Shown: positions 40,182 to 59,209, counted from the stretch's first letter. The stretch is DNA of 64,000 nucleotides from an uncultured Candidatus Rokubacteria bacterium (GCA_963762145.1 CAVXJS010000005.1:24133-88132); one strand, 5' to 3'. The notes: generated by a model not told the origin, from the letters alone. Made by a program: numbers and translations.

Positions 40182-41042
40182 TCAGAGGCGGGCCGTATGG
40201 CGGCGACGCCTCCGCGCGAGGTAGCCGAGCCCAGCTGCACTCGTGCCCCAGAGCAATAGGGTGGCGGGTTCCGGCGTGTGCAGCCCCGCGGCGCCCCCAA
40301 CCCAGAACTCGAGCTCGTTGCCGACGAAGGGATTATTCGGGTTGGCGATCTGTCCTCCCACGAGGCCGAGGACGACATCCTCATGCGGCCCGAGATCATG
40401 AACTGCGCCGCGGGCGTCGAATCCGAAACGGCCGCCGGCAGGGAGATTGGCATCCCGAATTGCTTTCCGGAGCGCCTCGGCGGGCACCCCGAAGTCGGCA
40501 GGCAACGTGATGACGCTCCCCGCATTGAGCACGACGTTGAACGGAACGGCGGGCCCCGGCGCGACCTCCCCCGAATGGGGAGCAATGCGGTGCACGGCAC
40601 TTCCCGTCAGGGTGACCACGTCACTCGGGGAGAAGATGGACGTTGCGGGCTGGTAGGTGACCTGGGTCTGAACCGACCAGAAGTCGCCGATGACGAAGAA
40701 TTGAAAGGTCTGCGCCACAACGAGAGGGTCGACCCGCCCGTCGCGTCCGAATCCGGCCAGGAAAACCAGATTGAAGTGCAGGGGGTTCTCGGCAAAGAGC
40801 ACAGCCGGCAGCGGATTCGGTGTGGCCGGCAACGGAGGAATGAACTGACTGAGCATGAAGGGATACAGATTGAAGCCCGGGAGATTCGGGTCAGGCGGCC
40901 CTTGCGGAACGCCGAATGTCGGTGGTACCGGAGCGGTCCCCGGGAAGCCAATGGTCATCGCCGATGCCGGAGCGGCAGCCCCCGATAACAGCACGAGGCC
41001 CACCAGGATGGTCGACGCCAACAGATTGGGGATGCGCTTCAT
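40182..41042 (-). CDS. PEP-CTERM surface protein, paralog 1
   Basis: Signal peptide; TPEPATLLLWGTSAAGLGYLARRRRR C-terminus. Confidence 0.88.
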   Translation of the reverse strand: MKRIPNLLASTILVGLVLLSGAAAPASAMTIGFPGTAPVPPTFGVPQGPPDPNLPGFNLYPFMLSQFIPPLPATPNPLPAVLFAENPLHFNLVFLAGFGRDGRVDPLVVAQTFQFFVIGDFWSVQTQVTYQPATSIFSPSDVVTLTGSAVHRIAPHSGEVAPGPAVPFNVVLNAGSVITLPADFGVPAEALRKAIRDANLPAGGRFGFDARGAVHDLGPHEDVVLGLVGGQIANPNNPFVGNELEFWVGGAAGLHTPEPATLLLWGTSAAGLGYLARRRRRHTARL

Positions 41043-41098
41043 ACCCTGCTCCTCTTGGATCGTTGGATCAGGCCAGGGAGCGACGAACAGGTGGCGCG

Positions 41099-41128
41099 AT
41101 GCTAGGGCGGGCAGCGCACGCTTGTCAA
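41099..41128 (-). promoter_or_regulatory. sigma70 promoter of PEP-CTERM gene 1
   Basis: TTGACA-N18-TAGCAT on minus strand; same boxes upstream of paralog 2. Confidence 0.6.
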
Positions 41129-41247
41129 CGCGTGGCCAGCCGGGTTCGGGAGTGCGGCTGAATGGTCGTCCCCGGCGGAGTGTTTGAAGTGGTCCATCAG
41201 GCAGTGCCGTGGTAGGGTGGCTGCCCCCATAGACGAAGGAGGACCCT

Positions 41248-41499
41248 ATGACTCAGTCGGGCGTGTCAGTATCCGAACCGAGCATCGTGGGCGTCACCGC
41301 CGTCACGGTGATCGAAACCGCCTCCAGAGACCTCGAGGACCTTGAGGAGATCATGACGGTAGGACACTCGCCTTCGTGGAGCCTCCCAGCGCTCCCGGAC
41401 GGCCTGGCTCTCTGCGTCAGCTGCTGGCGGCTGATCACGGCGCCACAGCTTGGCGTGGATCGATGCCTAGCCGCCAGGCAATGGGCAGTCTTCCGATGA
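41248..41499 (+). CDS. Small hypothetical protein (cassette-like)
   Basis: AAGGAGG SD; stop coincides with junction motif ATGATCGCC. Confidence 0.5.
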   Translation: MTQSGVSVSEPSIVGVTAVTVIETASRDLEDLEEIMTVGHSPSWSLPALPDGLALCVSCWRLITAPQLGVDRCLAARQWAVFR

Positions 41500-41792
41500 T
41501 CGCCTCGATCTATGCTCGCGTCGTTGTCGTCCTCGTCTGCCTCCTTGCCCCCGCCACATCGGCCTGGGCGGAATGCGCCTGGGTCTTGTGGCTCGGAACA
41601 GGCAGCGGCTATGCAGCCTTTGGAGCCTACGGGGGGAACACGGGGGAGAAGGATTGCAAGGAGGCGGCCACCCAGTTGATGACCAACATGGGCAAGGATG
41701 CCAAGCAGCTATCGGACTTTCTCAAATCGAGCAGTCGGTATCTGTGTCTCCCGGACACCGTGGATCCGCGCGGGCCGAAGGGGACGAAATGA
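41496..41792 (+). CDS. Small secreted protein, AECAWVLW...CLPDTVDPRGPK type
   Basis: Signal peptide, conserved-looking Cys pattern; starts at one junction motif and ends at the next. Confidence 0.7.
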   Translation: MIASIYARVVVVLVCLLAPATSAWAECAWVLWLGTGSGYAAFGAYGGNTGEKDCKEAATQLMTNMGKDAKQLSDFLKSSSRYLCLPDTVDPRGPKGTK

Positions 41793-41878
41793 TCACGCTC
41801 AAGGCGGTGCAGGAGATCCTCGGACACCGGAAGTCCACGATGACCCTCCGGTATGCCCGCCTCAGCACAAGGTGCTAA
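41789..41878 (+). pseudogene. Tyrosine integrase C-terminal remnant
   Basis: LKAVQEILGHRKSTMTLRYARLS (LGH...Y catalytic box). Confidence 0.75.
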
Positions 41879-41909
41879 AATCGAGCTCGCACGTCGCGTA
41901 AACCCTGAT

Positions 41910-41949
41910 GCCCCCGTAGCTCAGGGGAATAGAGCAGCAGTTTCCTAAA
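41910..41949 (+). pseudogene. tRNA-Arg(CCT) 5' half (att-like duplicate)
   Basis: GCCCCCGTAGCTCAGGGGAATAGAGCAGCAGTTTCCTAAA nearly identical to 48591-48630, ends at anticodon loop. Confidence 0.85.
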
Positions 41950-42531
41950 TCCAGACCGTCCTCATGGCCGAGCAGCCCACGCGCCAGGACGGCCTCCTCA
42001 CATACGCGCGCCGGATCGTCAAGGATCTCGAGCTCGCGGTCGCCGCCAAGGCCACGTGAGGATGCCGTGGCGCAGCTCGCGCCGGCAGACCAACTTTCGC
42101 CCGCCCTCAGGCGCCGCTGGACGCCCACCGAGGCGGAGCGCGGGTTGCTGGCGCGGTGACAGCAGCGCCTCGGCGAGGCGGCCGCGACCATGCTCCGATC
42201 GCCCCGCCCGCGCCACGCCGCGAGATCACGGGCGCCCGGCTGGAGGAGGCGAGTACGGTAGGCGCCACCAGGCCGTCCCGCCCACTGATCGAAAACTTGG
42301 AGGACCTCTAATGCAACCCGATCTGTACCTGTCTGCCGACGAGTTCCATCGCCGAGTCGCAACGAGTCTGAAGGAGATGTAGAAGGTGAACCCTGGTAGC
42401 CCGAGGATGGCGGAACTGCAAGCGCAGCAAGAGACGCTCTACAAGCGGAAGTACGGCGACCGGTAGTCAGCGAGAACTAGGCTATGACCACAGCCCCCGC
42501 CGCCCACGCGCTGGTCAAGGCCCGCTGGACC

Positions 42532-43371
42532 CTAAGGGGCCGCCTTATGGTTCCGGCGTCGCCGCGCGAGATATCCGAGCCCAGCCGCGGTGCCCCAGAG
42601 GAGGAGGGTCGCGGGTTCGGGGGTATGCAGCCCAGCGACACCGCCAAGCCAGAATTCGAACTCGTTGCCGACGAAGGGATTGTTGGGGTTGGCGATCTGC
42701 CCGGCCAGGATGCCGAAGACGACATCTTCATCCGTCCCCAGCGTATGCGTAGCTGCGCGGACATCGAATCCGAATCGGGCGCCGGCCGGAAGGTTAGCGT
42801 CGTGAACCGCCCGTCGGAGTACATCGCCGCGCACGTCGAAGTCGGGCGGAAGGGTGATGGCGCTCCCGGCATTGAGCACGACGTTGGAGGGAACAGGCGG
42901 CCCCGGCGCGAACTCGCCCGGGTGCGGGCCGATGCGGTGCACCGAATCCGCCGTCATGGTCACGATGTCGCTCGGGGCGAAGATGGACGTCGCGGGTTTG
43001 TACTCGATCTGCGCCTGCACGGACCAGAAGTCCCCGATGATGAAGAAGTTGAAACTCTGGGCGGCCACAATCGGGTCCGTCTTGCCGTTCGGCCCTCCGA
43101 GCCCTGCCTGCATGACCAGGTTGAATTGCAATGGGCTCTCGGCAAACATCCCGCTCGGCAACGGATTCGGGGAGGGCGGCAGGAAACCATTCAGCATGAA
43201 GGGGTAGAGGTTGTAGCCAGGGAGATTGGGATTGGGAGGCCCAGCCGGGAGATTGGTCGGTGGGTTGCCTGGGATACCAATGACGGTGGCCGATGCCGGG
43301 CTGCCGGGACCAGCGAGCAATGCGAGCCCAAGGAGGAAAACCCACGCGGTGAGTCGTGTGGCCCGGGTCAT
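42532..43371 (-). CDS. PEP-CTERM surface protein, paralog 2
   Basis: Homologous along its length to 40182-41042; TPEPATLLLWG..AGLGYLARRRR. Confidence 0.88.
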   Translation of the reverse strand: MTRATRLTAWVFLLGLALLAGPGSPASATVIGIPGNPPTNLPAGPPNPNLPGYNLYPFMLNGFLPPSPNPLPSGMFAESPLQFNLVMQAGLGGPNGKTDPIVAAQSFNFFIIGDFWSVQAQIEYKPATSIFAPSDIVTMTADSVHRIGPHPGEFAPGPPVPSNVVLNAGSAITLPPDFDVRGDVLRRAVHDANLPAGARFGFDVRAATHTLGTDEDVVFGILAGQIANPNNPFVGNEFEFWLGGVAGLHTPEPATLLLWGTAAGLGYLARRRRNHKAAP

Positions 43372-43431
43372 CGCCTGTTCCTCCTCGTTCGTAGGATCAG
43401 GTCAGCAGGCGGTCGGATTGAAGTGGGCGCC

Positions 43432-43460
43432 ATGCTAGGTGAGCCCCACAGCCTTGTCAA
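43432..43460 (-). promoter_or_regulatory. sigma70 promoter of PEP-CTERM gene 2
   Basis: TTGACA-N17-TAGCAT on minus strand. Confidence 0.62.
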
Positions 43461-43732
43461 TGTCAGGTTGCCCCGTGAGTGATCGGCCTGCCGGCCTCGC
43501 CCGCCCCACGGACTTGTCGCCTCGCGTGAGCCCGGAGGATCTCCAGGACGCAGCATTGGTATTCGCTCGGGCCCTGCTCGAGCATCTGGCTGATGGCCTT
43601 GCTACCGGCCAGCTCGAGACGGTGCTCTCCGGCGCGCGGTGCCTGGAGCACCTCGCCAGGCTGGCCGGCCCGGCCGTCGCCGCGCAGGCCTTCGCCGCGG
43701 CCTGTCGAGCCCAATAAGGACCAATCTAGCCC

Positions 43733-43977
43733 GTGCCCACCCCCTCTTCGCGCCCAGACGCCCCTGGCCCCGAACGTTCGGCTCCTGTACGCTCCCCGCA
43801 GCCGATCTGCGTGGTCTGTGGAGGGCCGAGGGACTACCGGAAGCGGGAAGCCTGCTCCGATCGGTGCCCGGCGGCTCAAAGTAGACGGCGACGGCAGGAT
43901 GCCCAATTGACCCGAGATAGGAGATTCGGGCCCTTTTGGAAACGGCGCTGAAGAAACTGGAGGGCGAACGCCTATGA
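43733..43977 (+). CDS. Small CxxC...CxxxC zinc-binding protein (frameshift ~43920)
   Basis: CVVCGG..KREACSDRC; corrected C-terminus EIRALLETALKKLEGERL overlaps next ATG. Confidence 0.5.
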
Positions 43978-44960
43978 ATCGTCGAGCGTTCCTGAGCGCC
44001 CTGAGCGGCAGCCTCCTCGCCGCGCCGCTCGCCGCCGAGGCGCAGCCGACACCGAAGCCCGCGCGGGTCGCGCTTCTGTGCGGGGTGCGCTGCGAAGGCG
44101 GAGGCTACGATGCGTTTCGCCACGGGCTGCGCGACCTGGGGTGGGTCGAGGGCCGCAACCTCGTTGTCGACGTCCGAGGTGCCGAGGGGCAACCTGATCG
44201 CCTGCCTGCCCTCGTGGCCGAACTGGTCGCCGGCAGGCCCGACATCATCGTCGCCGTCGCGCCGCAGCCGGCTCGCGCCGCCAAGGACGCGGCGGGGGCT
44301 ATTCCCCTCGTATTCGTGGCAGTGGCCGATCCGATCGCAGCTGGGATCGTCCCGAGCCTCGCCCGGCCCGGCGGGAATGTGACGGGCCTGAGCACGTTAG
44401 TGCCGGGCGGTTTCATGGGCAAGATTCTCCAGTTCCTCAAAGAAGCGGTGCCGACGGCCTCCCGGGTCGCGGTTCTCTGGAGCTCGAAGAACCCTCTACA
44501 TGTCACCTTGATCCCGAAGGAGCTGACACCGTCTGCTCCACCACTCGGCGTCGAGCTTCAGATGCTGGATGTCACTGACCCCGCGGCCATCGCGCCCGCA
44601 GTCGAGGCAGCCGTTCACGGCCGCGCGCAAGCGCTCCTCGTCGTGGGCGATCCCATGTTCCACCGGCCCTTCGCACGGGTGCCCGACCTGGCTTTGCGCG
44701 CACGGCTGCCCTCGATGTATCTCGACCGCGACGTGGTGACGGTCGGAGGCGGGCTGCTGTCTTATGGCCCCGACTGGGGTGCGATGTTCCGTCGGGCCGC
44801 TGCCTATGTGGACAAGATCCTAAAGGGCACCAAACCCGGCGACATGCCCGTCGAGCAGCCGTCGAAGTTTGAGCTGGTCATCAACCTCAAGACCGCGAAG
44901 GCCCTCGGCCTGACGATCCCGCCGTCGCTCCTGCAGCGGGCGGATCAGGTGATCGAGTAG
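43974..44960 (+). CDS. ABC transporter substrate-binding protein (ABC_sub_bind type), orphan
   Basis: RR-type leader NRRAFL, SLARPGGNVTG, PVEQP.KFELVINLKTAKALGLTIP. Confidence 0.92.
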   Translation: MNRRAFLSALSGSLLAAPLAAEAQPTPKPARVALLCGVRCEGGGYDAFRHGLRDLGWVEGRNLVVDVRGAEGQPDRLPALVAELVAGRPDIIVAVAPQPARAAKDAAGAIPLVFVAVADPIAAGIVPSLARPGGNVTGLSTLVPGGFMGKILQFLKEAVPTASRVAVLWSSKNPLHVTLIPKELTPSAPPLGVELQMLDVTDPAAIAPAVEAAVHGRAQALLVVGDPMFHRPFARVPDLALRARLPSMYLDRDVVTVGGGLLSYGPDWGAMFRRAAAYVDKILKGTKPGDMPVEQPSKFELVINLKTAKALGLTIPPSLLQRADQVIE

Positions 44961-45934
44961 TGGACCGGCGCAGCTTCCTTAGCACCTTGACTGGTGGCCT
45001 CCTCGCCGCGCCGCTCGCCGCCGAGGCGCAACCGGCTGGGAAGGTGTGGCAGATCGGATATCTCCACTTGTTTCCCAGACCTTCGCCGTTCTTCCAAATG
45101 CTCGGCCAGGGGTTGCGTGATCTCGGATACGTCGAGGATCAGAACGTCGCCTTCGCGTACCGGAGCGCCGAGGGCAAGGCCGAGCGGCTTCCGACCCTCG
45201 CGGCTGATCTGGTCCACCTCAACGTCGACCTCATCGTTACCTCCACCGCTCCGGCGGCCCGTGCCGCGAAGGAAGCGACCACCACGATCCCCATCGTCAT
45301 GGTGGGCGTCAACTACGACCCGCTGGCGCTCGGCTACGTCGCCAGCCTCGCTCGGCCGGGGGGCAACGTCACGGGGCTATTCTTCCTTCACCTCGACTTG
45401 CTGGCCAAACGGCTCGGGGTCTTCAAGGACATGTTGCCTAGCGTCGGTCGCGTCGCTGTCCTTTCCGATCCCCTCTCGGTCGATCAACTCAAACAGGTGG
45501 AAGTGGTCAATCGCTCGCTGGGTTTCAAGCTCCACCCGCTGGAACTTCGAGAACCGCAGCTCGATGTGGAGAGCGCGTTTCGCGCCGCAGTGCGGTCTCG
45601 GGCCGAAGGGCTCTTCGTGTTGGAGACTGTGAACATCTTTCAAAAGCGATCACAGATCGCCCAGCTCGCCCTGAAGCACCGGCTCCCGACGAGCTTTGCG
45701 TTCCGAGAATACGTCGACGCTGGGGGCCTCGCCTCCTACGGTGTGAACTTCCCGGACATGGGCAGGCGCGCGGCCATCTACGTGGACAGGATCCTCAAGG
45801 GCGCCAAACCCGCAGACCTGCCGGTTGAGCAGGCGACCACGTTCGAGCTGGTTGTCAACCTCAAGACCGCCAAGGCTCTCGGGCTGACGATCCCGCCGTC
45901 ACTCTTGCAGCGGGCAGATCAGGTGATCGAGTGA
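44960..45934 (+). CDS. ABC transporter substrate-binding protein (ABC_sub_bind type), orphan
   Basis: Same family motifs as upstream paralog. Confidence 0.92.
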   Translation: MDRRSFLSTLTGGLLAAPLAAEAQPAGKVWQIGYLHLFPRPSPFFQMLGQGLRDLGYVEDQNVAFAYRSAEGKAERLPTLAADLVHLNVDLIVTSTAPAARAAKEATTTIPIVMVGVNYDPLALGYVASLARPGGNVTGLFFLHLDLLAKRLGVFKDMLPSVGRVAVLSDPLSVDQLKQVEVVNRSLGFKLHPLELREPQLDVESAFRAAVRSRAEGLFVLETVNIFQKRSQIAQLALKHRLPTSFAFREYVDAGGLASYGVNFPDMGRRAAIYVDRILKGAKPADLPVEQATTFELVVNLKTAKALGLTIPPSLLQRADQVIE

Positions 45935-45947
45935 GCCGTCCGCCACG

Positions 45948-46187
45948 ATGAGTACGCCTGTCGATCGCGAGCAGCTGCGGCGCGACTGCTCCGACGCCCT
46001 CGAGGCACTGATCCAAGCTCAACGATTGGACGGGATCACCCGGCTGGCCGACTCACTCCGAGCCCTCGGGCCGCCCTATCGCTTCCACGGGGAGCAGATC
46101 GATGCCGCGGCGTGGGCTCGCGAAGACAATACGGTCACCTGGCATCTGATCCACGCGCTCGAGAACCTCGAGCGCGGCGTGCAGTAG
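45948..46187 (+). CDS. Small hypothetical protein
   Basis: Co-oriented ORF with plausible composition. Confidence 0.5.
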   Translation: MSTPVDREQLRRDCSDALEALIQAQRLDGITRLADSLRALGPPYRFHGEQIDAAAWAREDNTVTWHLIHALENLERGVQ

Positions 46188-46208
46188 ATCGGACAAGCGG
46201 AGGCCACG

Positions 46209-46631
46209 ATGGCCCGGAAGCGAGCATCACGGCGGCCAGGGAAGAAGACCACGAAGCCCAGTGGCCAGCGGAAGACCGTGGCCAAGAGGAGGCCAGCCAA
46301 GAGGAACCCAGCCAAGAGGAGGCCAGCCAGGAAGAAGCCTGCCAATAGGAGAAAACTCGCCCAAAGGGAGCCCGGGTTAACAAGAGCGCCCGGAGGTGAG
46401 CCGGCGATGCCTCGTAAGCTCGCGGACACAGACCAGCAGATCGAGACGTTCCGGCATCATGTGTCTGAGGAGTGTGTCTCGATCGCGTCCAGCATCGACA
46501 CCATCCCGCCCGGCACGATCCCGGCCGAGATGCGCGATCGGTGGCTTCGGGGATTGCGCCATGCCGCAGTCGCCTTGGTCCCAGTGATTGAGCGGCTCGC
46601 CGGTGGGCCGACGACCAAGGCCGAGCCATGA
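46209..46631 (+). CDS. Hypothetical protein with K/R-rich pentapeptide-repeat N-terminus
   Basis: GGAGG SD; AKRRP/AKRNP/ARKKP repeats; stop on junction motif. Confidence 0.6.
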   Translation: MARKRASRRPGKKTTKPSGQRKTVAKRRPAKRNPAKRRPARKKPANRRKLAQREPGLTRAPGGEPAMPRKLADTDQQIETFRHHVSEECVSIASSIDTIPPGTIPAEMRDRWLRGLRHAAVALVPVIERLAGGPTTKAEP

Positions 46632-46731
46632 TCGCCGCCGGTTGCGGTCGAATCGTAGGTACCGCCGACCGTGAGCACTCTCGCTTCGCTCGCGCCGCCG
46701 GCGGGAGAAGCTGGCGGAGTACCTGAAGTGA
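46628..46731 (+). repeat. Cassette junction element 1 (ATGATCGCCGCC...GGGAGAAGCTGGCGGAGTACCTGAAGTGA)
   Basis: 46690-46729 matches 47355-47394 at 39/40. Confidence 0.8.
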
Positions 46732-46988
46732 GCCGCTACGCTCGTGAACGAGGCAGCTGGCGGAGCCGCGCCACCCGCCGACGGAGCCGCCGCGCCGCTA
46801 GCTTCGCCACCGCCCGCCGGGTCGCCCAGATCATTCGATCAATCATGGCCGGGCGTACCGCACACACCGTGCCAGCGACTCATTCCGTGCTTTTTCTGGA
46901 ACTTGGCGGTCCGCACCATCTTCGCGCAGAGCACGGACTTTCCCATCATGGGCTGCGCGATGACATTTCTCGACAGGGGGACCCATGA
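46728..46988 (+). CDS. Possible hypothetical cassette ORF (frame uncertain)
   Basis: GTG overlaps junction stop; TGA lies in next junction motif ATGATCACCGCCATCTACG. Confidence 0.3.
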   Translation: MSRYARERGSWRSRATRRRSRRAASFATARRVAQIIRSIMAGRTAHTVPATHSVLFLELGGPHHLRAEHGLSHHGLRDDISRQGDP

Positions 46989-47067
46989 TCACCGCCATCT
47001 ACGTCCGCACGCGCGGCCTGCGCTATCTCGACCCGGACGGCTGATGCTGCCGCGAGTACGAGAGCCG

Positions 47068-47331
47068 ATGGCCGCCACGCAGCCTGCGACGCAAAGCACT
47101 AGGGCGCCCGTTGTGATCGCGACGCTCGTGCTGGCCGGATGTGCCATCGCCCAGAACACGCCCGCGCAGGAGCGGACATGGCAGGCCATCGCGAAGTGTA
47201 GGGAACTCCAACCGAGCGGGTATCAAGTGACCCACGTAGAGCCTGATGGTCGGTACTTCTACAGGTCTGGTGACTTCGCCGGTGGTGTCCGCCCATGGCA
47301 AGACTGTATCCGCGCCGGCGGCCCCCGATGA
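47068..47331 (+). CDS. Small lipoprotein
   Basis: LAGC lipobox, two further Cys; stop on junction motif. Confidence 0.65.
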   Translation: MAATQPATQSTRAPVVIATLVLAGCAIAQNTPAQERTWQAIAKCRELQPSGYQVTHVEPDGRYFYRSGDFAGGVRPWQDCIRAGGPR

Positions 47332-47396
47332 TCGCCGCCTATCCCCCAATATCTTCGCGCCGCCAGCGGGAGAAGCTGGCGGAGTACCTGAAGTAG
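47328..47396 (+). repeat. Cassette junction element 2 / 22-aa mini-ORF MIAAYPPISSRRQREKLAEYLK
   Basis: 69 bp in frame; hairpin CCGCCAGC-N7-GCTGGCGG. Confidence 0.8.
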
Positions 47397-47403
47397 AGGG
47401 CAG

Positions 47404-47787
47404 ATGGACGGCGCCGGAGTGGTGGTGGTTCTGGGCGTCTTTATCCTCATCATCGTGGCGGTCATTGCCTACCGAGTGGGATACCTGCGGGCACAGGACG
47501 TGAGCCACAGGCTAGAAGCCGAGTGGCGCAGGCTGCCCATGGAGGCCCCCTTGCCGCGTTGGCGCCGCGCGGCGGGTTGGGCGGCCTATGTGTCCTCCGC
47601 GCTCTCGCTCTGTCTGTTCCTGGTCGTCGCGTATGTGTACGCATACCGCTGGGGGTGGACCTATCTGACGGCCGCATGGATTCTGTGGTTCGGCATCTTC
47701 CTGGGAGTGCTCTGGCTCGCCGAGTGGTGTTGGAAGCCCAGCCGAGAGGCCCAGGGCGGTGCGAGTGACGAGAAGGATCCGGAATGA
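47404..47787 (+). CDS. Small membrane protein (3 predicted TM segments)
   Basis: Hydrophobic stretches; begins 7 nt after junction 2, stop on next junction motif. Confidence 0.65.
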   Translation: MDGAGVVVVLGVFILIIVAVIAYRVGYLRAQDVSHRLEAEWRRLPMEAPLPRWRRAAGWAAYVSSALSLCLFLVVAYVYAYRWGWTYLTAAWILWFGIFLGVLWLAEWCWKPSREAQGGASDEKDPE

Positions 47788-47853
47788 TCGCCGCCATCCA
47801 CCCACGTCAGGCCGCCGGAAGAACGGGAGCGGCTGGAGGAAGACCTGAAGTGA
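47784..47853 (+). repeat. Cassette junction element 3 (diverged)
   Basis: ATGATCGCCGCCATC...CGGGAGCGGCTGGAGGAAGACCTGAAGTGA; last 30 bp match copy 1 at 25/30. Confidence 0.7.
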
Positions 47854-48112
47854 TGTCATCCGCGCTGGCGCAGCTCTGGCTGTCGTGAGGGGCAGGAGGA
47901 ACCTCTAATGCTACAGCTCTTCGACCTTTCGAGACAGAACGCCGCCCTAAAGCGTGCGCTACTCCAATGCCGTGAAGACGACGAGGCCCGCCGCCGCCTG
48001 CTTGCTTCCATCTATGAGACTTGGACTGGGCGCAGCTGAATGTCTGGCGAATCATGCGGAGCCGCGGCGCGGCTCGATGCGTTGCTACATGGGGGTGGAA
48101 TAGGGAGGGAGT

Positions 48113-48376
48113 ATGGCCAAAACGCCTAGTGATCTGATTTTCGAAGCACTGTGCCTTCGATATCGTTCGACCACCAACGTCGCCTGGGTGATGACGCGGC
48201 AGGAACTGCAGGAGGCGACCGGTCTGCCAGCGGAAACCCTCGTCGATGCATTGCGCGACCTGGTTAACCCGACGAACGAGGACCTCCCGATCCGCTTCGT
48301 CAACAACGACTCCGACAAGATCACGATCGGCCCGGCATGGGCGAGTCGGTGCGAGGACATGGGGAAGCCCGCGTGA
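48113..48376 (+). CDS. Small hypothetical protein (possible winged helix)
   Basis: GGAGG SD; MTRQELQEATGLPAETLVDALRDL; stop on GTGATCGCCGCC. Confidence 0.6.
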   Translation: MAKTPSDLIFEALCLRYRSTTNVAWVMTRQELQEATGLPAETLVDALRDLVNPTNEDLPIRFVNNDSDKITIGPAWASRCEDMGKPA

Positions 48377-48384
48377 TCGCCGCC

Positions 48385-48505
48385 AGGGGCAGATCTACGA
48401 CCTCAAGGAGATCCTGGGCCACAGCGATATCAAGATGACCGCCCGCTACGCCCACCTCAGCCCGGCGCACCTGCGCGCCGGCGTGGATGCGCTCGACGGG
48501 CTCAC
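48385..48505 (+). pseudogene. Tyrosine integrase C-terminal remnant
   Basis: IYDLKEILGHSDIKMTARYAHLSPAHLR. Confidence 0.8.
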
Positions 48506-48507
48506 CG

Positions 48508-48540
48508 ATGGGCACACGAATGGGCACAAAGTGCTAGAAT
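48508..48540 (+). promoter_or_regulatory. Arm-type direct repeats (ATGGGCACA x2) plus extended -10 TGCTAGAAT upstream of tRNA-Arg
   Basis: Repeats at 48508 and 48520; similar GCACAAGGTGCTAAAAT precedes the 41910 half-tRNA. Confidence 0.5.
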
Positions 48541-48590
48541 CTGAGTCGGCGCAGGACACCGCGCCGCGTAACTCCGCGAGACAACAAGGC

Positions 48591-48667
48591 GCCCCCGTAG
48601 CTCAGGTGGATAGAGCAGCAGTTTCCTAAACTGCGTGCCGGGTGTTCGAGTCACCCCGGGGGCACCA
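48591..48667 (+). tRNA. tRNA-Arg(CCT)
   Basis: 77-nt cloverleaf: GCCCCCG/CGGGGGC acceptor, GCAGT-TTCCTAA-ACTGC, GGGTG-TTCGAGT-CACCC, CCA. Confidence 0.95.
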
Positions 48668-48673
48668 TCCACA

Positions 48674-49889
48674 TCACGCATTTAGCGCGCGATCCTCTCG
48701 TCGGCCGTTCGCCGGGGGCGGAAGCGGTTGCGCCTGGGTCGCGGCGGGACGCGTGTCCGCCGCCTCGATGGCCGCGGCGAGCCCTTCCGCGTGATGCCGG
48801 TCCCCGCCCGGGACGAAGTGGCCGTAGAGGTCCACCGTGACCTGGATCGAGGAGTGGCCGAGCTGGCGGGACTACGTAGGCGATTGGTACGCCCCGCCGG
48901 AGCATCAGGCTCGCGTAGGTGTGCCGAGCGTCATGGATGCGGATGTGCGCGCACCGCCGCCTTGTCGAGCAGCGGGGGCCAGACGTGGCGCCAGACCCAC
49001 GAGGCGTTGAGCGGCCGGGTAGGGTCGATGGCCGCCGGGAAGACCCACGGCGACAGCTCGTGGCCGGCGACGGCCGCCTCGGCCTGGGCGATGGAGTGGC
49101 GCTCGTGGAGCTGGGCCATCAGCGCGGCGGGGCAGTCCACGATGCGGAGCCGGCCCGACTTGGGCGTGTTCACGAGCACCCGGCCGCCGCGCACCGCCAC
49201 GGTCCGCTGCAGGTCGATCAGGTTGCGGCGCCGGGTCGAGGTCCGCCCACTGCAGCCCGAGCGCCTCGCCCTCTCGCATGCCGGTGAGAAACAGCACCGC
49301 ACGAGCAGGGCGTGGTCGGGATACCACTTTTGGGCGGCGGCTAGCACCTGCGCCACCTGCTCGGGCTCGAGCACCATGACGTGCGCGCGAGGATCGTGGC
49401 GCAGGCCGAAGAGCCGCCCCACGCGCGCGGCCGGATTGGACGGGATGATTTCGTCGCCCACGGCCGCGTAGAGGATGCTGCGCAGGGTGGCGGCCATGTT
49501 CTTCACCGTGTTGCGGGCGGCGCCGCTCTGGAGCTTCTTGGCGACAAAGGCCCGCACGTGCGCCGGACGGATCTCGCCGAGGGTCATGGCCCCGAACGTC
49601 GGCTCCAGGTGGGCCGTGATGATCTGCTCGAGTACTGGGCGGTCCGGGCCTTGCGGTGCGGCACGATGGTCTCGGTACGCCACTGCACTGCGTACGCTTT
49701 GAACGTCGGCACGGGCGCACTTTCGATAAAGGCCGGCCCGCCCTCGTGCAGCCGGCGCTCGCTGCCCGCCGCGACATACGTCGCCGCCTTTTCCGACCCG
49801 ATGCGCCGGCTGCGCCGCTGCTTGCCGTGGCGGATGAACACCCAGTAGACGCCGCTCCCGGGAACCTTCTCGCGAACCGTGACACCCAT
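48674..49889 (-). CDS. Tyrosine integrase (multiple frameshifts)
   Basis: TGMREGEALGLQW, TPKSG, IHDARHTYAS, QLGHSSIQVTVDLYGH over several frames. Confidence 0.85.
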
Positions 49890-56865: not shown

Positions 56866-57030
56866 GTTGTCCTCCCCGTCAAGGCGTGATTGGGGGCGGA
56901 GGCAGGATAGGCGGACGAGGGCCACGACTGCAAGTCAGGGTGAAGCAGCGCGGACGTAGATGGCGGCATTCATCGGCGGCTCTCCTTGCCAGCTCATAGC
57001 GTTCAGCGCGTCGTCACCGCGGTCCGAAAC

Positions 57031-57297: not shown

Positions 57298-58953
57298 TTA
57301 TCTGCTTAGTTCCTCAGGGAGCTTTGTGTTCCGTAGCGTCTTAGCTCCCCGAATCTGTGTCTGCGTAAGACCTTTAGCACCGCTCAGGTCCACGTCGGTA
57401 AGGTCGGAGCCCATAAGAGTCGCGCCAGACAGATCCGCCCCGCTAAGGTTGGCACCAGCAAGAACGGCATGCCTGAGATCGGCACCCGTCAGGTCAGCGC
57501 GCGAGAGGTCTGCCTCGATCAACACCGCCTCGGTGAGGACTGCCCTGACGAGGCTGGCCTGAGTAAGGTTTGCCTGGATGAGCGTGGCGCCATGCAGTTT
57601 GCCGTTGGTGATGTTTGCATTGAAGAGAATGGCTCTTATGAGAATAGCGTCCCTCAGATTCGCGCCGGTTAGATTGACACGGCGACCTTCGAGCAAGAAC
57701 GGGTATGGCCACCCTTCAAGGTGTTTTGGTCCGGCTACCGAAGGAGAGAGAATTGCTCCGGCCAAATTAGCGCCCACCAGGATTGCGTTCCGCAAAGATG
57801 CTCCAGTGAGGTCGGCCTCAACGAGGATCGCGCCGGTAAGATCGGCGCCATCTAGCCACGCCTCGACGGCAACTACTCGAGTGAGGTTTGCCTCGGCAAG
57901 GTTTGCGACGCGATCAGCCACAAGCGGAGCATAACGCCAAGTCGGAAACGACCACCAGCTATGAGGCGCTTCTGTCAGTGAGGGGTTCAGCTTTGCGCCG
58001 GAAAGGTTGGCTCGGTCGAGCCGCGATGCGTGTAGATTTGCGCCCTTAAGATCCGCGTTAACGAGGACCGCACGGGATAATGTCGCACGTGTGAAATTCG
58101 CGCGACTCAGTCTCGCTTCAGCGAGCATTGCAGAAGTCAGTTCCGCCTCCTCAAGGTTGCCGAAACGAATGTCTGCGCCTCGTAGATATGTCCCCGGTAG
58201 CCAGGCTCCCTTGAAATCGTCGCGGAAGAGATTTAGAGGCCGACGCCAGGACTGGCCTTGCAGGGTTAGACGCTGAAAGCTCGCCGGGTCAAGGTAGGCT
58301 CTCGCGATCACGTTGATCCATATCCATAGAGCGAGTGGAAGAACTAGCACGGAGAGTGCGACCAGCGCGAGTGTCACAATACGCAGTGTATTCTTGAGAC
58401 CTCGTCCGGAGGCTCGGGAACGCGAGATGAGGCAAAGGAGTAAGCGGAAGGTGACGACACCGGTAATGAGACTCAAGTCGATCCAAGCGAGACTTCCCCC
58501 TGCTTTCCACGCGAAGGTTGCCAAAACGAAAGGCACTAACCAGTAGAACAGCAGCGTAGTTAGCAGGCGTGCCCAACGCCGGTCCAGACTGAATAGTGTG
58601 ACCGCAGTCGCGGGAAGACTCAGGCGCCGTCGGGCAGCATCGAGTTCCAACCAATGACCGAAGAGAACATGCACGTGGATCAGGAGGACGATTAGCAGCA
58701 GAGGAGCGATGATGAGAAATGCTGCAAAGGACATAGAGACGTTTAACAAGGGCACCGCAATCGATGGTTCAGGAGCGATCAGCGAGCGGTCGGCCGCACC
58801 AAGGATCGTGAACAAGCAGAAGATGGCAACCGCGAGTAAGGACAGGGCCGCGCGATTGGCTGCGTCGGAACTCCGCTCGTAGAGAACAGAGATGGCTGCG
58901 CGATCTTCGTCGTGCGGCGTCGACGAGTCCACGGAAACCGAGTCGTTCGCCAT
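57298..58953 (-). CDS. Membrane-anchored pentapeptide-repeat protein
   Basis: Several N-terminal TM helices then long A(D/N)L(S/T)G repeats; lower GC than core. Confidence 0.88.
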   Translation of the reverse strand: MANDSVSVDSSTPHDEDRAAISVLYERSSDAANRAALSLLAVAIFCLFTILGAADRSLIAPEPSIAVPLLNVSMSFAAFLIIAPLLLIVLLIHVHVLFGHWLELDAARRRLSLPATAVTLFSLDRRWARLLTTLLFYWLVPFVLATFAWKAGGSLAWIDLSLITGVVTFRLLLCLISRSRASGRGLKNTLRIVTLALVALSVLVLPLALWIWINVIARAYLDPASFQRLTLQGQSWRRPLNLFRDDFKGAWLPGTYLRGADIRFGNLEEAELTSAMLAEARLSRANFTRATLSRAVLVNADLKGANLHASRLDRANLSGAKLNPSLTEAPHSWWSFPTWRYAPLVADRVANLAEANLTRVVAVEAWLDGADLTGAILVEADLTGASLRNAILVGANLAGAILSPSVAGPKHLEGWPYPFLLEGRRVNLTGANLRDAILIRAILFNANITNGKLHGATLIQANLTQASLVRAVLTEAVLIEADLSRADLTGADLRHAVLAGANLSGADLSGATLMGSDLTDVDLSGAKGLTQTQIRGAKTLRNTKLPEELSR

Positions 58954-59209
58954 GTTCCCCCGCGGTCGTCCTGTGGGCTGGGTGTTACGCCCGAGCGTAG
59001 CGAACACGAATGCAGACCAGCGGAAGGTATTTTACGCCGTAGTGGCAGTGGAACGCGAACGCGATGTTCAGGCCGCGATTTGCGGAGGGTCGGAGGGCGG
59101 AAGGACCTTCTTGGCCTGCCTTGACATCGGCCGGGCGATGGCCCATACCTTCTCGCAGGCGATCCCGCCGATGGCCGCGCCCGGCGAAGTGGGACGGGAG
59201 ACCTGCGCG

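What the first reader, a model, noticed from the sequence alone, without database searches (positions are those of the whole stretch)
41496..48390. Candidate new gene-cassette array: seven unrelated genes stop on a shared RTGATC(GCCGCCATCTAC) motif
Seen: the TGA stops of ORFs ending at 41499, 41792, 46631, 46988, 47331, 47787 and 48376 all fall in the same motif. The copies read ATGATCGCCTCGATCTATGCTCGC, ATGATCAC, ATGATCGCCGCC, ATGATCACCGCCATCTACGTCCGC, ATGATCGCCGCC, ATGATCGCCGCCATCCAC and GTGATCGCCGCC. All genes are short, co-oriented and unrelated (secreted protein, lipoprotein, membrane, basic, wHTH-like). Read from its own ATG, the motif gives MIA(A/S)IYARV / MITAIYVR. Known: (A)xYxRxS is the catalytic N-terminal motif of serine recombinases. 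Inference: these are repeated recombination junctions overlapping the 5' end of a serine-recombinase gene. That would make an integron-like gene-capture array using a serine recombinase acting in trans, rather than IntI/attC. No intact recombinase is in the window.
Basis: partly seen in the sequence, partly recalled or inferred. Interest (0 to 1): 0.9.

Follow-up and report, generated by a model that had tools for sequence, protein, structure and literature searches.

The report
Recombinase-gene ghosts in a tRNA island
The repeated motif is the leftover first few codons of a serine-recombinase gene, kept between small genes in a decayed pile of mobile elements next to a tRNA-Arg gene; it is a variant of a known kind of genomic island, not a shown new gene-capture system.

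Summary
All seven TGA stops lie in RTGATC, and four copies read ATGATCGCCGCC within 1.2 kb.

In related genomes this DNA begins full-length large serine recombinase (LSR) genes, MIAAIYARKST....

The integron-like reading is not supported.
- These LSRs sit at tRNA 3' ends and use a site at their own 3' end.
- Only 2 of 80 LSR loci have extra start copies upstream.
- The retained start varies from 8 to 39 nt.
- The junctions do not fold like attC.

The window is a tRNA-Arg(CCT) hotspot. A 6.64-kb island lies between a displaced 40-nt tRNA half and the restored tRNA. Each of these is preceded by an LSR start fused to a tyrosine-integrase C-terminal fragment.

Inside the island, four ~70-nt units join the LSR start to a conserved tail..REKLAEYLK*. 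I read them as ghosts of deleted recombinase genes. Each forms a 22-23-codon mini-ORF between small cargo genes. The tail occurs seven times in this genome and is rare elsewhere. Whether the units still act as recombination sites is open.

The parts
41248..41499 (+). 83-aa ORF of no known family; its stop overlaps motif copy 1
   Evidence: no Pfam match. A weak tail-like stretch lies upstream at 41174-41192 (family D9). A related strain in run X9 has a better preserved tail there (table 5c, my reading).
41496..41792 (+). Secreted 98-aa protein. Its first 8 codons (MIASIYAR) are the LSR start (motif copy 1, 41496-41519), fused to a signal peptide.
   Evidence: Homologues in L076 and L069 have their own different starts, and L032 also has the LSR-type start. 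In L076 and L032 this gene ends in ATGA on an LSR start.
41789..41878 (+). Motif copy 2 (ATGATCAC) joined to a tyrosine-integrase C-terminal fragment (..LKAVQEILGHRKSTMTLRYARLS..)
   Evidence: Pfam Phage_integrase profile positions 145-169 of 172, E 0.0071, below the cut-off. Direct repeat D8 with 48406-48461.
41910..41949 (+). Displaced 5' half of tRNA-Arg(CCT), with the conserved upstream flank at 41862-41909
   Evidence: 38 of 40 nt identical to 48591-48630. The flank plus half-tRNA match the tRNA-Arg loci of relatives L036, L078, L069 and L031.
41950..48590 (+). 6.64-kb island inserted in the anticodon-loop region of tRNA-Arg
   Evidence: Bounded by the 40-nt direct repeat. The congener L036 has 4.2 kb between tRNA-Pro(cgg) and tRNA-Arg; the window has 13 kb.
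45948..46187 (+). 79-aa gene, the conserved left-hand gene of the element family
   Evidence: 63% identical homologue upstream of the LSR in L036, and beside a tyrosine integrase in contig C14.
46209..46631 (+). 140-aa basic protein with 15-nt tandem repeats; its stop lies in unit U1
   Evidence: (D3). Small basic proteins sit in the same position in L036, C15 and C19.
46628..46731 (+). Unit U1: LSR start (12 nt), then about 50 nt, then the tail RRRREKLAEYLK*. Out of frame.
   Evidence: (D5).
46985..47067 (+). Unit U2: LSR start (24 nt, MITAIYVR) plus a decayed tail
   Evidence: The decayed tail (..GCGAGTAC..) is my reading by eye, not scored.
47068..47331 (+). 87-aa lipoprotein; its stop lies in unit U3
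   Evidence: Weak PepSY_2 match, E 0.0045, below the cut-off.
47328..47396 (+). Unit U3: an in-frame 22-codon mini-ORF, MIAAYPPISSRRQREKLAEYLK*
   Evidence: Its tail is 39 of 40 nt identical to that of U1 (D5).
47404..47787 (+). 127-aa membrane protein; its stop lies in unit U4
   Evidence: A 77%-identical copy with the tail on its left lies at C15:230779-231203 in another context.
47784..47852 (+). Unit U4: LSR start (about 18 nt) plus the tail ..ERERLEEDLK*
   Evidence: All four public runs lack one base at 47815, which by my reading puts the unit in frame as a 22-codon ORF (table 4).
47908..48039 (+). 43-aa ORF that follows the tail
   Evidence: A similar ORF follows a tail copy in congener G154 (by eye).
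48113..48376 (+).
   Evidence: Homologues upstream of the LSR in L036 and in contig C11.
48373..48629 (+). LSR start (GTGATCGCCGCC) joined to a tyrosine-integrase C-terminal fragment (..GQIYDLKEILGHSDIKMTARYAHLSP..). Its frame runs into the tRNA and stops in the anticodon loop.
   Evidence: Pfam Phage_integrase positions 144-171 of 172, E 0.0013. The same layout with a full 382-aa integrase is in L031.
48591..48667 (+). tRNA-Arg(CCT), restored
48674..48943 (-). Frameshifted tyrosine-recombinase remnant, convergent on the tRNA 3' end
   Evidence: Read by eye (..RIHDARHTYASL.. and ..VDLYGHFVP..). Not reported by the PF00589 scan at E 0.01.
56945..56973 (-). Another LSR-start remnant (MNAAIYVRAASP*)

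Best explanation
The region is a tRNA-Arg(CCT) integration hotspot. It holds the decayed, rearranged remains of small integrative elements of one family.

In that family the last cargo gene is translationally coupled to the integrase gene by an ATGA overlap. The integrase is a large serine recombinase beginning MIAAIYARKST. In some lineages a tyrosine integrase has replaced it, placed behind the retained first 11-13 LSR codons.

In this genome every recombinase body has been lost. What remains at each former recombinase position is its start, 8-24 nt long. It is joined to one of three things:
(a) a tyrosine-integrase C-terminal fragment next to a tRNA half (two copies);
(b) the signal peptide of the next gene (one copy);
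(c) a conserved ~45-nt tail reading ..R(K/Q)ERE(K/R)LAEYLK*, which resembles the end of a tyrosine recombinase (four copies).

Type (c) gives ~70-nt ghost units that are, or nearly are, 22-23-codon mini-ORFs. Each overlaps the stop of the gene before it and ends 5-12 nt before the start of the next gene in most copies.

Shown: the origin of the motif, the tRNA-island anatomy, the unit structure and the unit's distribution.

Inferred:
- the units arose by deletion between the LSR-type leader and the catalytic-tyrosine region of a downstream integrase, which share ATCTACGC;
- they persist because they keep neighbouring genes translationally coupled;
- as near-identical repeats they promote reshuffling of the small genes.
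For: Motif is an LSR start:
- Found in 36 of 101 family genomes, with 0 for the backwards control.
- Of the 31 places read, 17 are LSR-type. Five of these continue into an LSR body and 12 stop being LSR-like within 6-13 codons (my classification).
- Domains confirmed. The LSR family is in 59 of 159 family genomes and in none of this genome's contigs.

LSR att site at its 3' end:
- The last codons ..VPPG* are the complement of the tRNA-Arg 3' end.
- 40 of 67 loci have a convergent tRNA.

ATGA coupling is a family trait: the frame ending in ATGA is open for at least 60 codons in 29 of 67 loci, against 13 and 3 in the other two frames.

LSR start used as leader of tyrosine integrases: L011, L031 (upstream of tRNA-Arg, 382 aa, Phage_integrase E 2.5e-33) and L018.

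Island anatomy.

Same element family: orf79, basic gene, wHTH, lipoprotein and LSR lie in order in congener L036. Decayed copies are in C11, C15 and C19.

Tail:
- 7 copies in this genome, 1 each in two congeners, none in the other 156 genomes at 3 mismatches or fewer. Looser matches occur in three more congeners.
- Every copy ends in a stop (TGA, TAG or TAA) and carries CTG/TTG and GAG/GAA synonymous changes.

Tail resembles a tyrosine-recombinase end: IYAHVTPTKQRE against IYTHVSPERQRE of this genome's XerC/D-like protein, 8 of 12 identical, E 2e-4 for that one comparison.

Frame kept: U3 is in frame. U4 is in frame in 4 of 4 runs. In X9 a 3-nt insertion occurs in U3, and there is an intact in-frame variant of the unit (my reading).
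Against: - No intact gene ending in ..EYLK* was found in this genome or in the 159 family genomes at the stringency used. The source of the tail is therefore unproven.
- Pfam sees nothing in the units.
- Random decay does not explain why 12 of 17 LSR-type starts break within the first 6-13 codons.
- It also does not explain why U1 and U3 tails are 39 of 40 nt identical between unrelated genes.
- The membrane-protein gene with its tail, and with GATCGCC at its end, recurs in another context on C15.
- These three points fit a site-directed or repeat-directed process better than plain decay.
- U1 is out of frame, and U4 is out of frame in the window as assembled.
- The translational-coupling role is untested.
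Confidence: 0.6

Rival explanations
1. The ~70-nt units (LSR start plus tail) are working recombination sites. Modules of the form tail, gene, start are inserted, excised or swapped at them, either by a site-specific recombinase supplied in trans (serine or tyrosine) or by homologous exchange between units. That would make a cassette-like variable region.
For: - Gene content between the conserved left genes and the recombinase end differs among copies in the genus, with units at the joints.
- The membrane-protein module recurs on C15 with homology starting at the tail and ending at GATCGCC.
- U1 and U3 tails are 39 of 40 nt identical.
- The tail is amplified in this genome only.
- Many different genes abut the LSR start.
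Against: - No recombinase of the LSR family is in the genome.
- The length of retained start varies (8, 12, 12, 12, about 18, 19, 24, 24 nt in this genome), which does not fit one crossover point.
- No contig in four runs joins across a single module. The one joint inside the array (46813 to 47367, one contig, 40 nt on the shorter side) is weak.
- Only 2 of 80 LSR loci elsewhere show tandem starts.
Confidence: 0.2
2. One reading: an integron analogue in which a large serine recombinase acts at a site overlapping its own start codon and captures cassettes there.
For: - L032 shows gene, start-fused gene, 25-codon remnant, gene, then full LSR, all joined by ATGA. That is an array ending in an LSR.
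- Upstream neighbours of LSR starts are very diverse: 27 clusters among 29.
Against: - The LSRs' own attachment site is at the 3' end of the gene, in tRNAs.
- 78 of 80 loci have a single start.
- Breakpoints scatter over 8-39 nt, whereas serine recombinases cut at one central dinucleotide (established knowledge, recalled).
- The units have no dyad or attC-like fold: z-scores -1.28 to 0.37.
Confidence: 0.07
3. Coincidence of ordinary ATGA start/stop overlaps in a GC-rich genome, or a misassembly of repeats.
For: - ATGA overlaps are common.
- ATG ATC necessarily contains TGA.
- MAG assemblies can collapse or chimerise repeats.
Against: - Enrichment over shuffles, and clustering on one strand.
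- Identity of 12-24 nt to LSR starts of relatives.
- Contigs from runs of two studies bridge the junctions.
Confidence: 0.03

Closest known systems
tRNA/tmRNA-targeting genomic islands with tandem accretion and decayed remnants (Dehalococcoides ssrA islands with a CcrB-like serine recombinase; tycheposons; ICESt1-type accretion)
   Same: - Repeated integration at one RNA gene pushes older elements inward.
- Displaced partial tRNA copies mark the ends.
- Fragmented integrases and cargo-only remnants stay behind.
- Both serine and tyrosine integrases occur in one element family.

   Basis: passages read in PMC3146451 and in bioRxiv 10.1101/2020.12.28.424599. For PMC4383910 (Islander) I saw only the search listing and abstract.
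   Different: - Only one displaced tRNA half is present here. The internal joints carry no tRNA repeat; instead they carry a ~70-nt chimera of a recombinase start and a recombinase-like tail.
- Modules are single small genes of 130-420 nt, far smaller than islands.
- The recombinase start is reused as a leader for another integrase class and as the N-terminus of secreted proteins.
Integron cassette arrays (IntI, attI, attC)
   Same: Co-oriented small, unrelated, mostly promoterless-looking genes are separated by a short repeated element of about 60-100 nt. The array lies next to where a recombinase gene would start.
   Different: - No IntI.
- The repeat has no attC-type imperfect palindrome or fold and no GTTRRRY core (read).
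- The repeat overlaps the stop of the gene before it and reads as a mini-ORF.
- The array sits in a tRNA island.

Integron features are recalled, not taken from a call.
SCCmec-type composite islands and Tn4451/TnpX-type elements (large serine recombinase elements)
   Same: LSR-borne small elements stack at one site. The recombinase gene lies at the very end of the element, so its expression signals lie at a joint. (Recalled. The CcrB comparison is also made in PMC3146451.)
   Different: Those elements keep their recombinases and defined end repeats. Here the LSR's 3' end, not its 5' end, lies at the attachment site, and only the 5' stumps survive.

Membership tests
Large serine recombinase gene (source of the motif) | Resolvase catalytic domain, Recombinase domain and zinc ribbon in one protein of about 500-600 aa | tested here: not met
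   Met in relatives: L031 protein, E 2.3e-23, 2e-21 and 2.4e-08. In the window and the whole genome there is no Resolvase match and no match to the LSR alignment. Only 8-24 nt of the start remain.
Large serine recombinase gene (source of the motif) | N-terminal catalytic motif Y-x-R-x-S with the serine | tested here: not met
   The window copies read MIASIYARV, MITAIYVRT and MIAAIHPRQ. The serine codon is absent in all of them.
Integron | IntI-type tyrosine recombinase next to the array | tested here: not met
   The PF00589 scan of the genome finds only a 28-residue fragment in this contig. No IntI-specific model was run.
Integron | attC sites: imperfect inverted repeats that fold as single strands, with a GTTRRRY core | tested here: not met
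   Units folded as DNA on both strands give z-scores of -1.28, 0.33, 0.08, 0.23 and 0.37. No GTTRRRY occurs in U1-U4 (read).
tRNA-integrating island (tyrosine-integrase type) | A displaced tRNA fragment as a direct repeat of part of an intact tRNA gene | tested here: met
   41910-41949 against 48591-48630: 40 nt, 95% identical. tRNA-Arg is intact.
tRNA-integrating island (tyrosine-integrase type) | Integrase gene adjacent to the attachment site | tested here: inconclusive
   Only C-terminal fragments remain (E 0.0013 and 0.0071, both below the Pfam cut-off). Full-length counterparts in the same position exist in L031 and L033.
Tandem accretion of elements | Two or more element ends of the same kind in series at one site | tested here: met
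   Two modules of the form LSR start, integrase C-fragment, tRNA 5' half, about 75% identical over 56 nt (D8 and D11).

The most novel reading that the evidence does not exclude
The ~70-nt chimeric unit (serine-recombinase start plus tyrosine-recombinase-like tail) is a live recombination site. It lets single small genes be captured, duplicated and reshuffled immediately upstream of the element's integrase. Each insertion would regenerate the integrase's start codon and keep all genes translationally coupled. That would be a cassette system built on a recombinase gene's own ends and unrelated to IntI/attC.
Probability: 0.12. Interest if true: 0.8.

Novelty: new variant of a known kind. Interest (0 to 1): 0.38.

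Why it matters
If the main reading is right, the region is an ordinary though unusually tidy graveyard of integrative elements. Its value is descriptive, in three ways.
- It shows that the first codons of a recombinase gene can outlive the gene.
- It shows that they can be reused: as a leader for a different integrase class, as the N-terminus of secreted proteins, and as a coupling mini-ORF.
- It warns that 'shared stop motifs' in GC-rich genomes can be such stumps.

If the units do recombine, this would be a second, independent way of building gene-cassette arrays in soil bacteria. It would be testable with the full-length recombinases found in relatives.

Tried and rejected
1. attC-like or RNA structure. 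Rfam at E <= 1 over 40500-49500 found only the tRNA. DNA folds of the units were no better than shuffles.

2. The tail as the end of an LSR. Nineteen full LSR C-termini were read and none ends in ..EYLK.

3. The tail as the other arm of the LSR attP. No LSR 3' end is followed by a tail in the loci held. This idea is unsupported.

4. The 63-aa frame upstream of one tail copy as a real protein. Matches at E <= 0.01 came from 8 of 159 genomes, counting this one. The congener matches cover residues 2-53, so the tail itself is essentially not matched. The frame is probably non-coding DNA beside a PilZ gene.

5. Direct repeats of the tRNA 3' end to delimit the LSR elements. None was found, as expected for serine recombinases.

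6. Pfam on the units found nothing at E <= 10.

7. Strain variation from public runs. All four runs laid are short contigs, not reads. No contig cleanly skips one module. Parts without cover prove nothing.

8. I first read two X9 joints (47396 to 41202, and 47798 to 47356) as a different cassette order. I then judged them to be paralogous or orthologous units placed on the best-matching copy.

10. The search for related loci failed once because the machine was busy. The retry worked.

11. Supplementary files of papers were not asked for. None bears on a claim here.

12. Structure prediction, complex prediction, the protein-database searches and the atlas were not used. The open question is about DNA joints, not folds.

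Full report
**What is there.** RTGATC begins at 41496, 41789, 46628, 46985, 47328, 47784 and 48373, and its TGA ends a + strand ORF each time. RTGATCRCC occurs 11 times in the window against 3.21 expected, and 0 of 100 shuffles reached 11. Six of the 11 lie in these 7 kb, all on the + strand. The 41789 copy is short (ATGATCAC). The ORF ending at 46988 is doubtful as a gene. Because Met-Ile written ATG ATC contains TGA, any gene running into such a start in that frame must stop there. That accounts for part of the 'shared stop'.

**Origin of the motif.**
- ATGATCGCCGCCATCTAC with at most one mismatch is present in 36 of 101 genomes of the same family. The pattern read backwards is present in none (one of the 36 is the unpublished G009).
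- I read 31 places in 30 loci (my classification). Seventeen are recombinase-type starts (MIAAIY...). Five of those run on into a recombinase body (L010, L024 second copy, and the frameshifted L016, L019 and L026). Twelve cease to be recombinase-like after 6-13 codons. The other 14 are unrelated genes that happen to hold MIAAI.
- The full proteins are 555 and 565 aa, with Resolvase, Recombinase and Zn_ribbon_recom domains.
- The family is found in 59 of 159 family genomes (one of them the unpublished G087), but not in this genome, which is 88% complete.
- Named records with the same start are MAGs labelled Rokubacteria, Nitrospira, Acidobacteriota/Vicinamibacterales and Gemmatimonadales.

**How these recombinases sit in genomes.**
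- They lie convergent on tRNA genes (Arg-CCT, Glu, Ala, Ser). At tRNA-Arg their last codons ..VPPG* are the complement of the tRNA 3' end.
- In the wider set, 40 of 67 loci with enough sequence have a convergent tRNA at the 3' end of the gene. The attachment site is therefore at the gene's 3' end, not its start.
- Only 2 of 80 loci (L172, L173) have further start copies upstream.
- An upstream frame ending in the ATGA is open for at least 60 codons in 29 of 67 loci, against 13 and 3 in the other two frames. Those 29 frames fall into 27 unrelated clusters. Coupling of a variable last cargo gene to the recombinase start is a family habit.

**The window's anatomy.**
- tRNA-Arg(CCT) is at 48591-48667. 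Its first 40 nt recur at 41910-41949 with 95% identity.
- The 48 nt before that copy match the tRNA-Arg upstream flank of four relatives. Hence 41950-48590 is a 6.64-kb insertion that brought a new 5' half for the tRNA.
- Each tRNA half is preceded by a tyrosine-integrase C-terminal fragment..EILGH..MT.RYA.LS (weak Pfam matches; repeat D8). Each fragment begins right after an LSR start of 8 or 12 nt.
- The intact form of this layout exists in relatives. In L031 the first 11 LSR codons are followed by a ribosome-binding site and, overlapping as TGATG, a 382-aa tyrosine integrase. That integrase's frame runs through the 5' half of tRNA-Arg and stops in the anticodon loop. L011 and L018 show the same leader before other tyrosine integrases. 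L033 has a frameshifted full integrase before tRNA-Arg.
- The element family thus exists with either integrase class behind the same stump.

**Same family, other copies.**
- A congener (L036) has, in order, the 79-aa gene, a small basic gene, the wHTH-like gene, a lipoprotein gene and a frameshifted LSR abutting tRNA-Arg.
- The window has homologues of the first and third genes and a basic gene in the second position, but about 1.9 kb of extra small genes between them.
- Further decayed copies lie on contigs C11, C15 and C19 of this genome and in congener G154, each with different small genes.
- The secreted protein at 41496 has homologues that end in ATGA on an LSR start (L076, L032), or that lie just before tRNA-Arg (L069). 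Two of the four (the window and L032) carry the LSR start as their own first eight codons, while L076 and L069 have other starts. Other such fusions of the stump to hydrophobic N-termini are in L012/L034, L021/L035 and L172.

**The internal joints.**
- The four copies at 46628, 46985, 47328 and 47784 are each the head of a unit of roughly 70-100 nt. The second part of the unit is a conserved ~45-nt tail, ...CGGGAG(A/C)(A/G)GCTGGNGGAGTACCTGAAGTRR. It reads ..R(K/Q)ERE(K/R)LAEYLK*.
- In most copies the tail ends 5-12 nt before the next gene's start.
- At 3 mismatches or fewer, the tail occurs seven times in this genome, once in each of two congeners, and in none of the other 156 family genomes. 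Looser copies are in three more congeners.
- All nine copies end in a stop codon, and differences include synonymous CTG/TTG and GAG/GAA changes.
- In G154 a unit reads MIAAIYAHVTPTKQRE... This aligns with the catalytic-tyrosine region IYTHVSPERQRE of this genome's XerC/D-like recombinase: 8 of 12 identical, E 2e-4 for that single comparison.
- I therefore read the unit as a chimera. An LSR-type leader is joined to the last ~16 codons of a tyrosine recombinase at the ATCTACGC that both share, with the integrase body between them deleted. This is inference. No intact donor gene was found, and Pfam is silent on such short pieces.

**Are the units more than scars?** Several facts argue for some directed or selected process.
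- U3 is an in-frame 22-codon ORF.
- All four public runs lack one base at 47815, which by my reading makes U4 an in-frame 22-codon ORF too. X9 shows a 3-nt insertion in U3 and an intact in-frame variant of the unit.
- The tails of U1 and U3 are 39 of 40 nt identical between unrelated genes.
- The membrane-protein gene, with a tail on its left and GATCGCC on its right, recurs on C15 beside an RtcB-like gene (my reading of its sequence, not run against Pfam). Homology there starts at the tail.
- Most LSR-type starts in the family are very short stumps.

Against live site-specific recombination:
- The retained start varies from 8 to 39 nt.
- There is no fold or dyad.
- No LSR is in the genome.
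- No contig in four runs skips exactly one module (these are contigs only, so this is weak).

**Verdict.** The array is best explained as accreted and decayed integrative elements at a tRNA-Arg hotspot. That is a known kind of island, described for the Dehalococcoides ssrA islands and for tycheposons (passages read). This one has an unusual, genus-restricted ghost unit at the joints. I give 0.6 to that reading, 0.2 to the units being working exchange sites of some kind, and 0.07 to the strict integron-by-LSR model.

The search for prior descriptions was limited. Neither listed a paper describing cassette arrays built on serine-recombinase gene ends, but two word searches do not show that none exists.

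Noticed in passing
window 47815: All contigs of four public soil runs (X1, X2, X9, X10) lack one base here relative to the window. This is either an assembly error in the window or a strain difference. It changes the frame of unit U4.
   Followed up: partly
window 46281-46355 and 46310: The basic protein gene holds 15-nt tandem repeats (D3). Run X9 has a 30-nt insertion of two more repeats (table 4).
   Followed up: no
window 40182-41042 (-) and 42532-43371 (-): Two paralogous genes of about 280 aa for secreted Pro/Gly-rich proteins, 72-77% identical in DNA (D1, D4, D6). One lies outside and one inside the island. No Pfam match.
   Followed up: no
window 43974-45934: Two adjacent ABC_sub_bind paralogues. 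Their conserved ends draw very high summed depth from many organisms in soil runs, so depth there says nothing about this genome.
   Followed up: no
L031 10215-11362 (-) and window 48246-48629: The tyrosine integrase's reading frame runs through the 5' half of tRNA-Arg and uses TAA in the anticodon loop as its stop. The integrase 3' end and the attachment site therefore overlap.
   Followed up: partly
window 48674-48943 (-): A frameshifted tyrosine-recombinase remnant lies convergent on the tRNA 3' end. One of its frames also ends ..VPPG* through the tRNA complement, as the LSRs do.
   Followed up: no
G000 C14:23117-24084: A homologue of the 79-aa gene lies directly before a tyrosine integrase with an internal break, followed by what look by eye like tRNA genes (ARAGORN not run there). 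The 79-aa gene thus travels with both integrase classes.
   Followed up: partly
Several LSR loci (G150:C210, G055:C60, G071:C91, G085:C109, G148:C184, G114:C174, G085:C63): Contigs end 0.35-1.3 kb upstream of the LSR start in 7 of 20 regions fetched. This hints at repeats or strain variation just upstream of the recombinase that break assemblies.
   Followed up: no
window 57298-59007 (-): A 569-aa pentapeptide-repeat protein, next to another LSR-start stump at 56973 and a decayed lipoprotein gene of the ..DYQRQGYERVP family.
   Followed up: no
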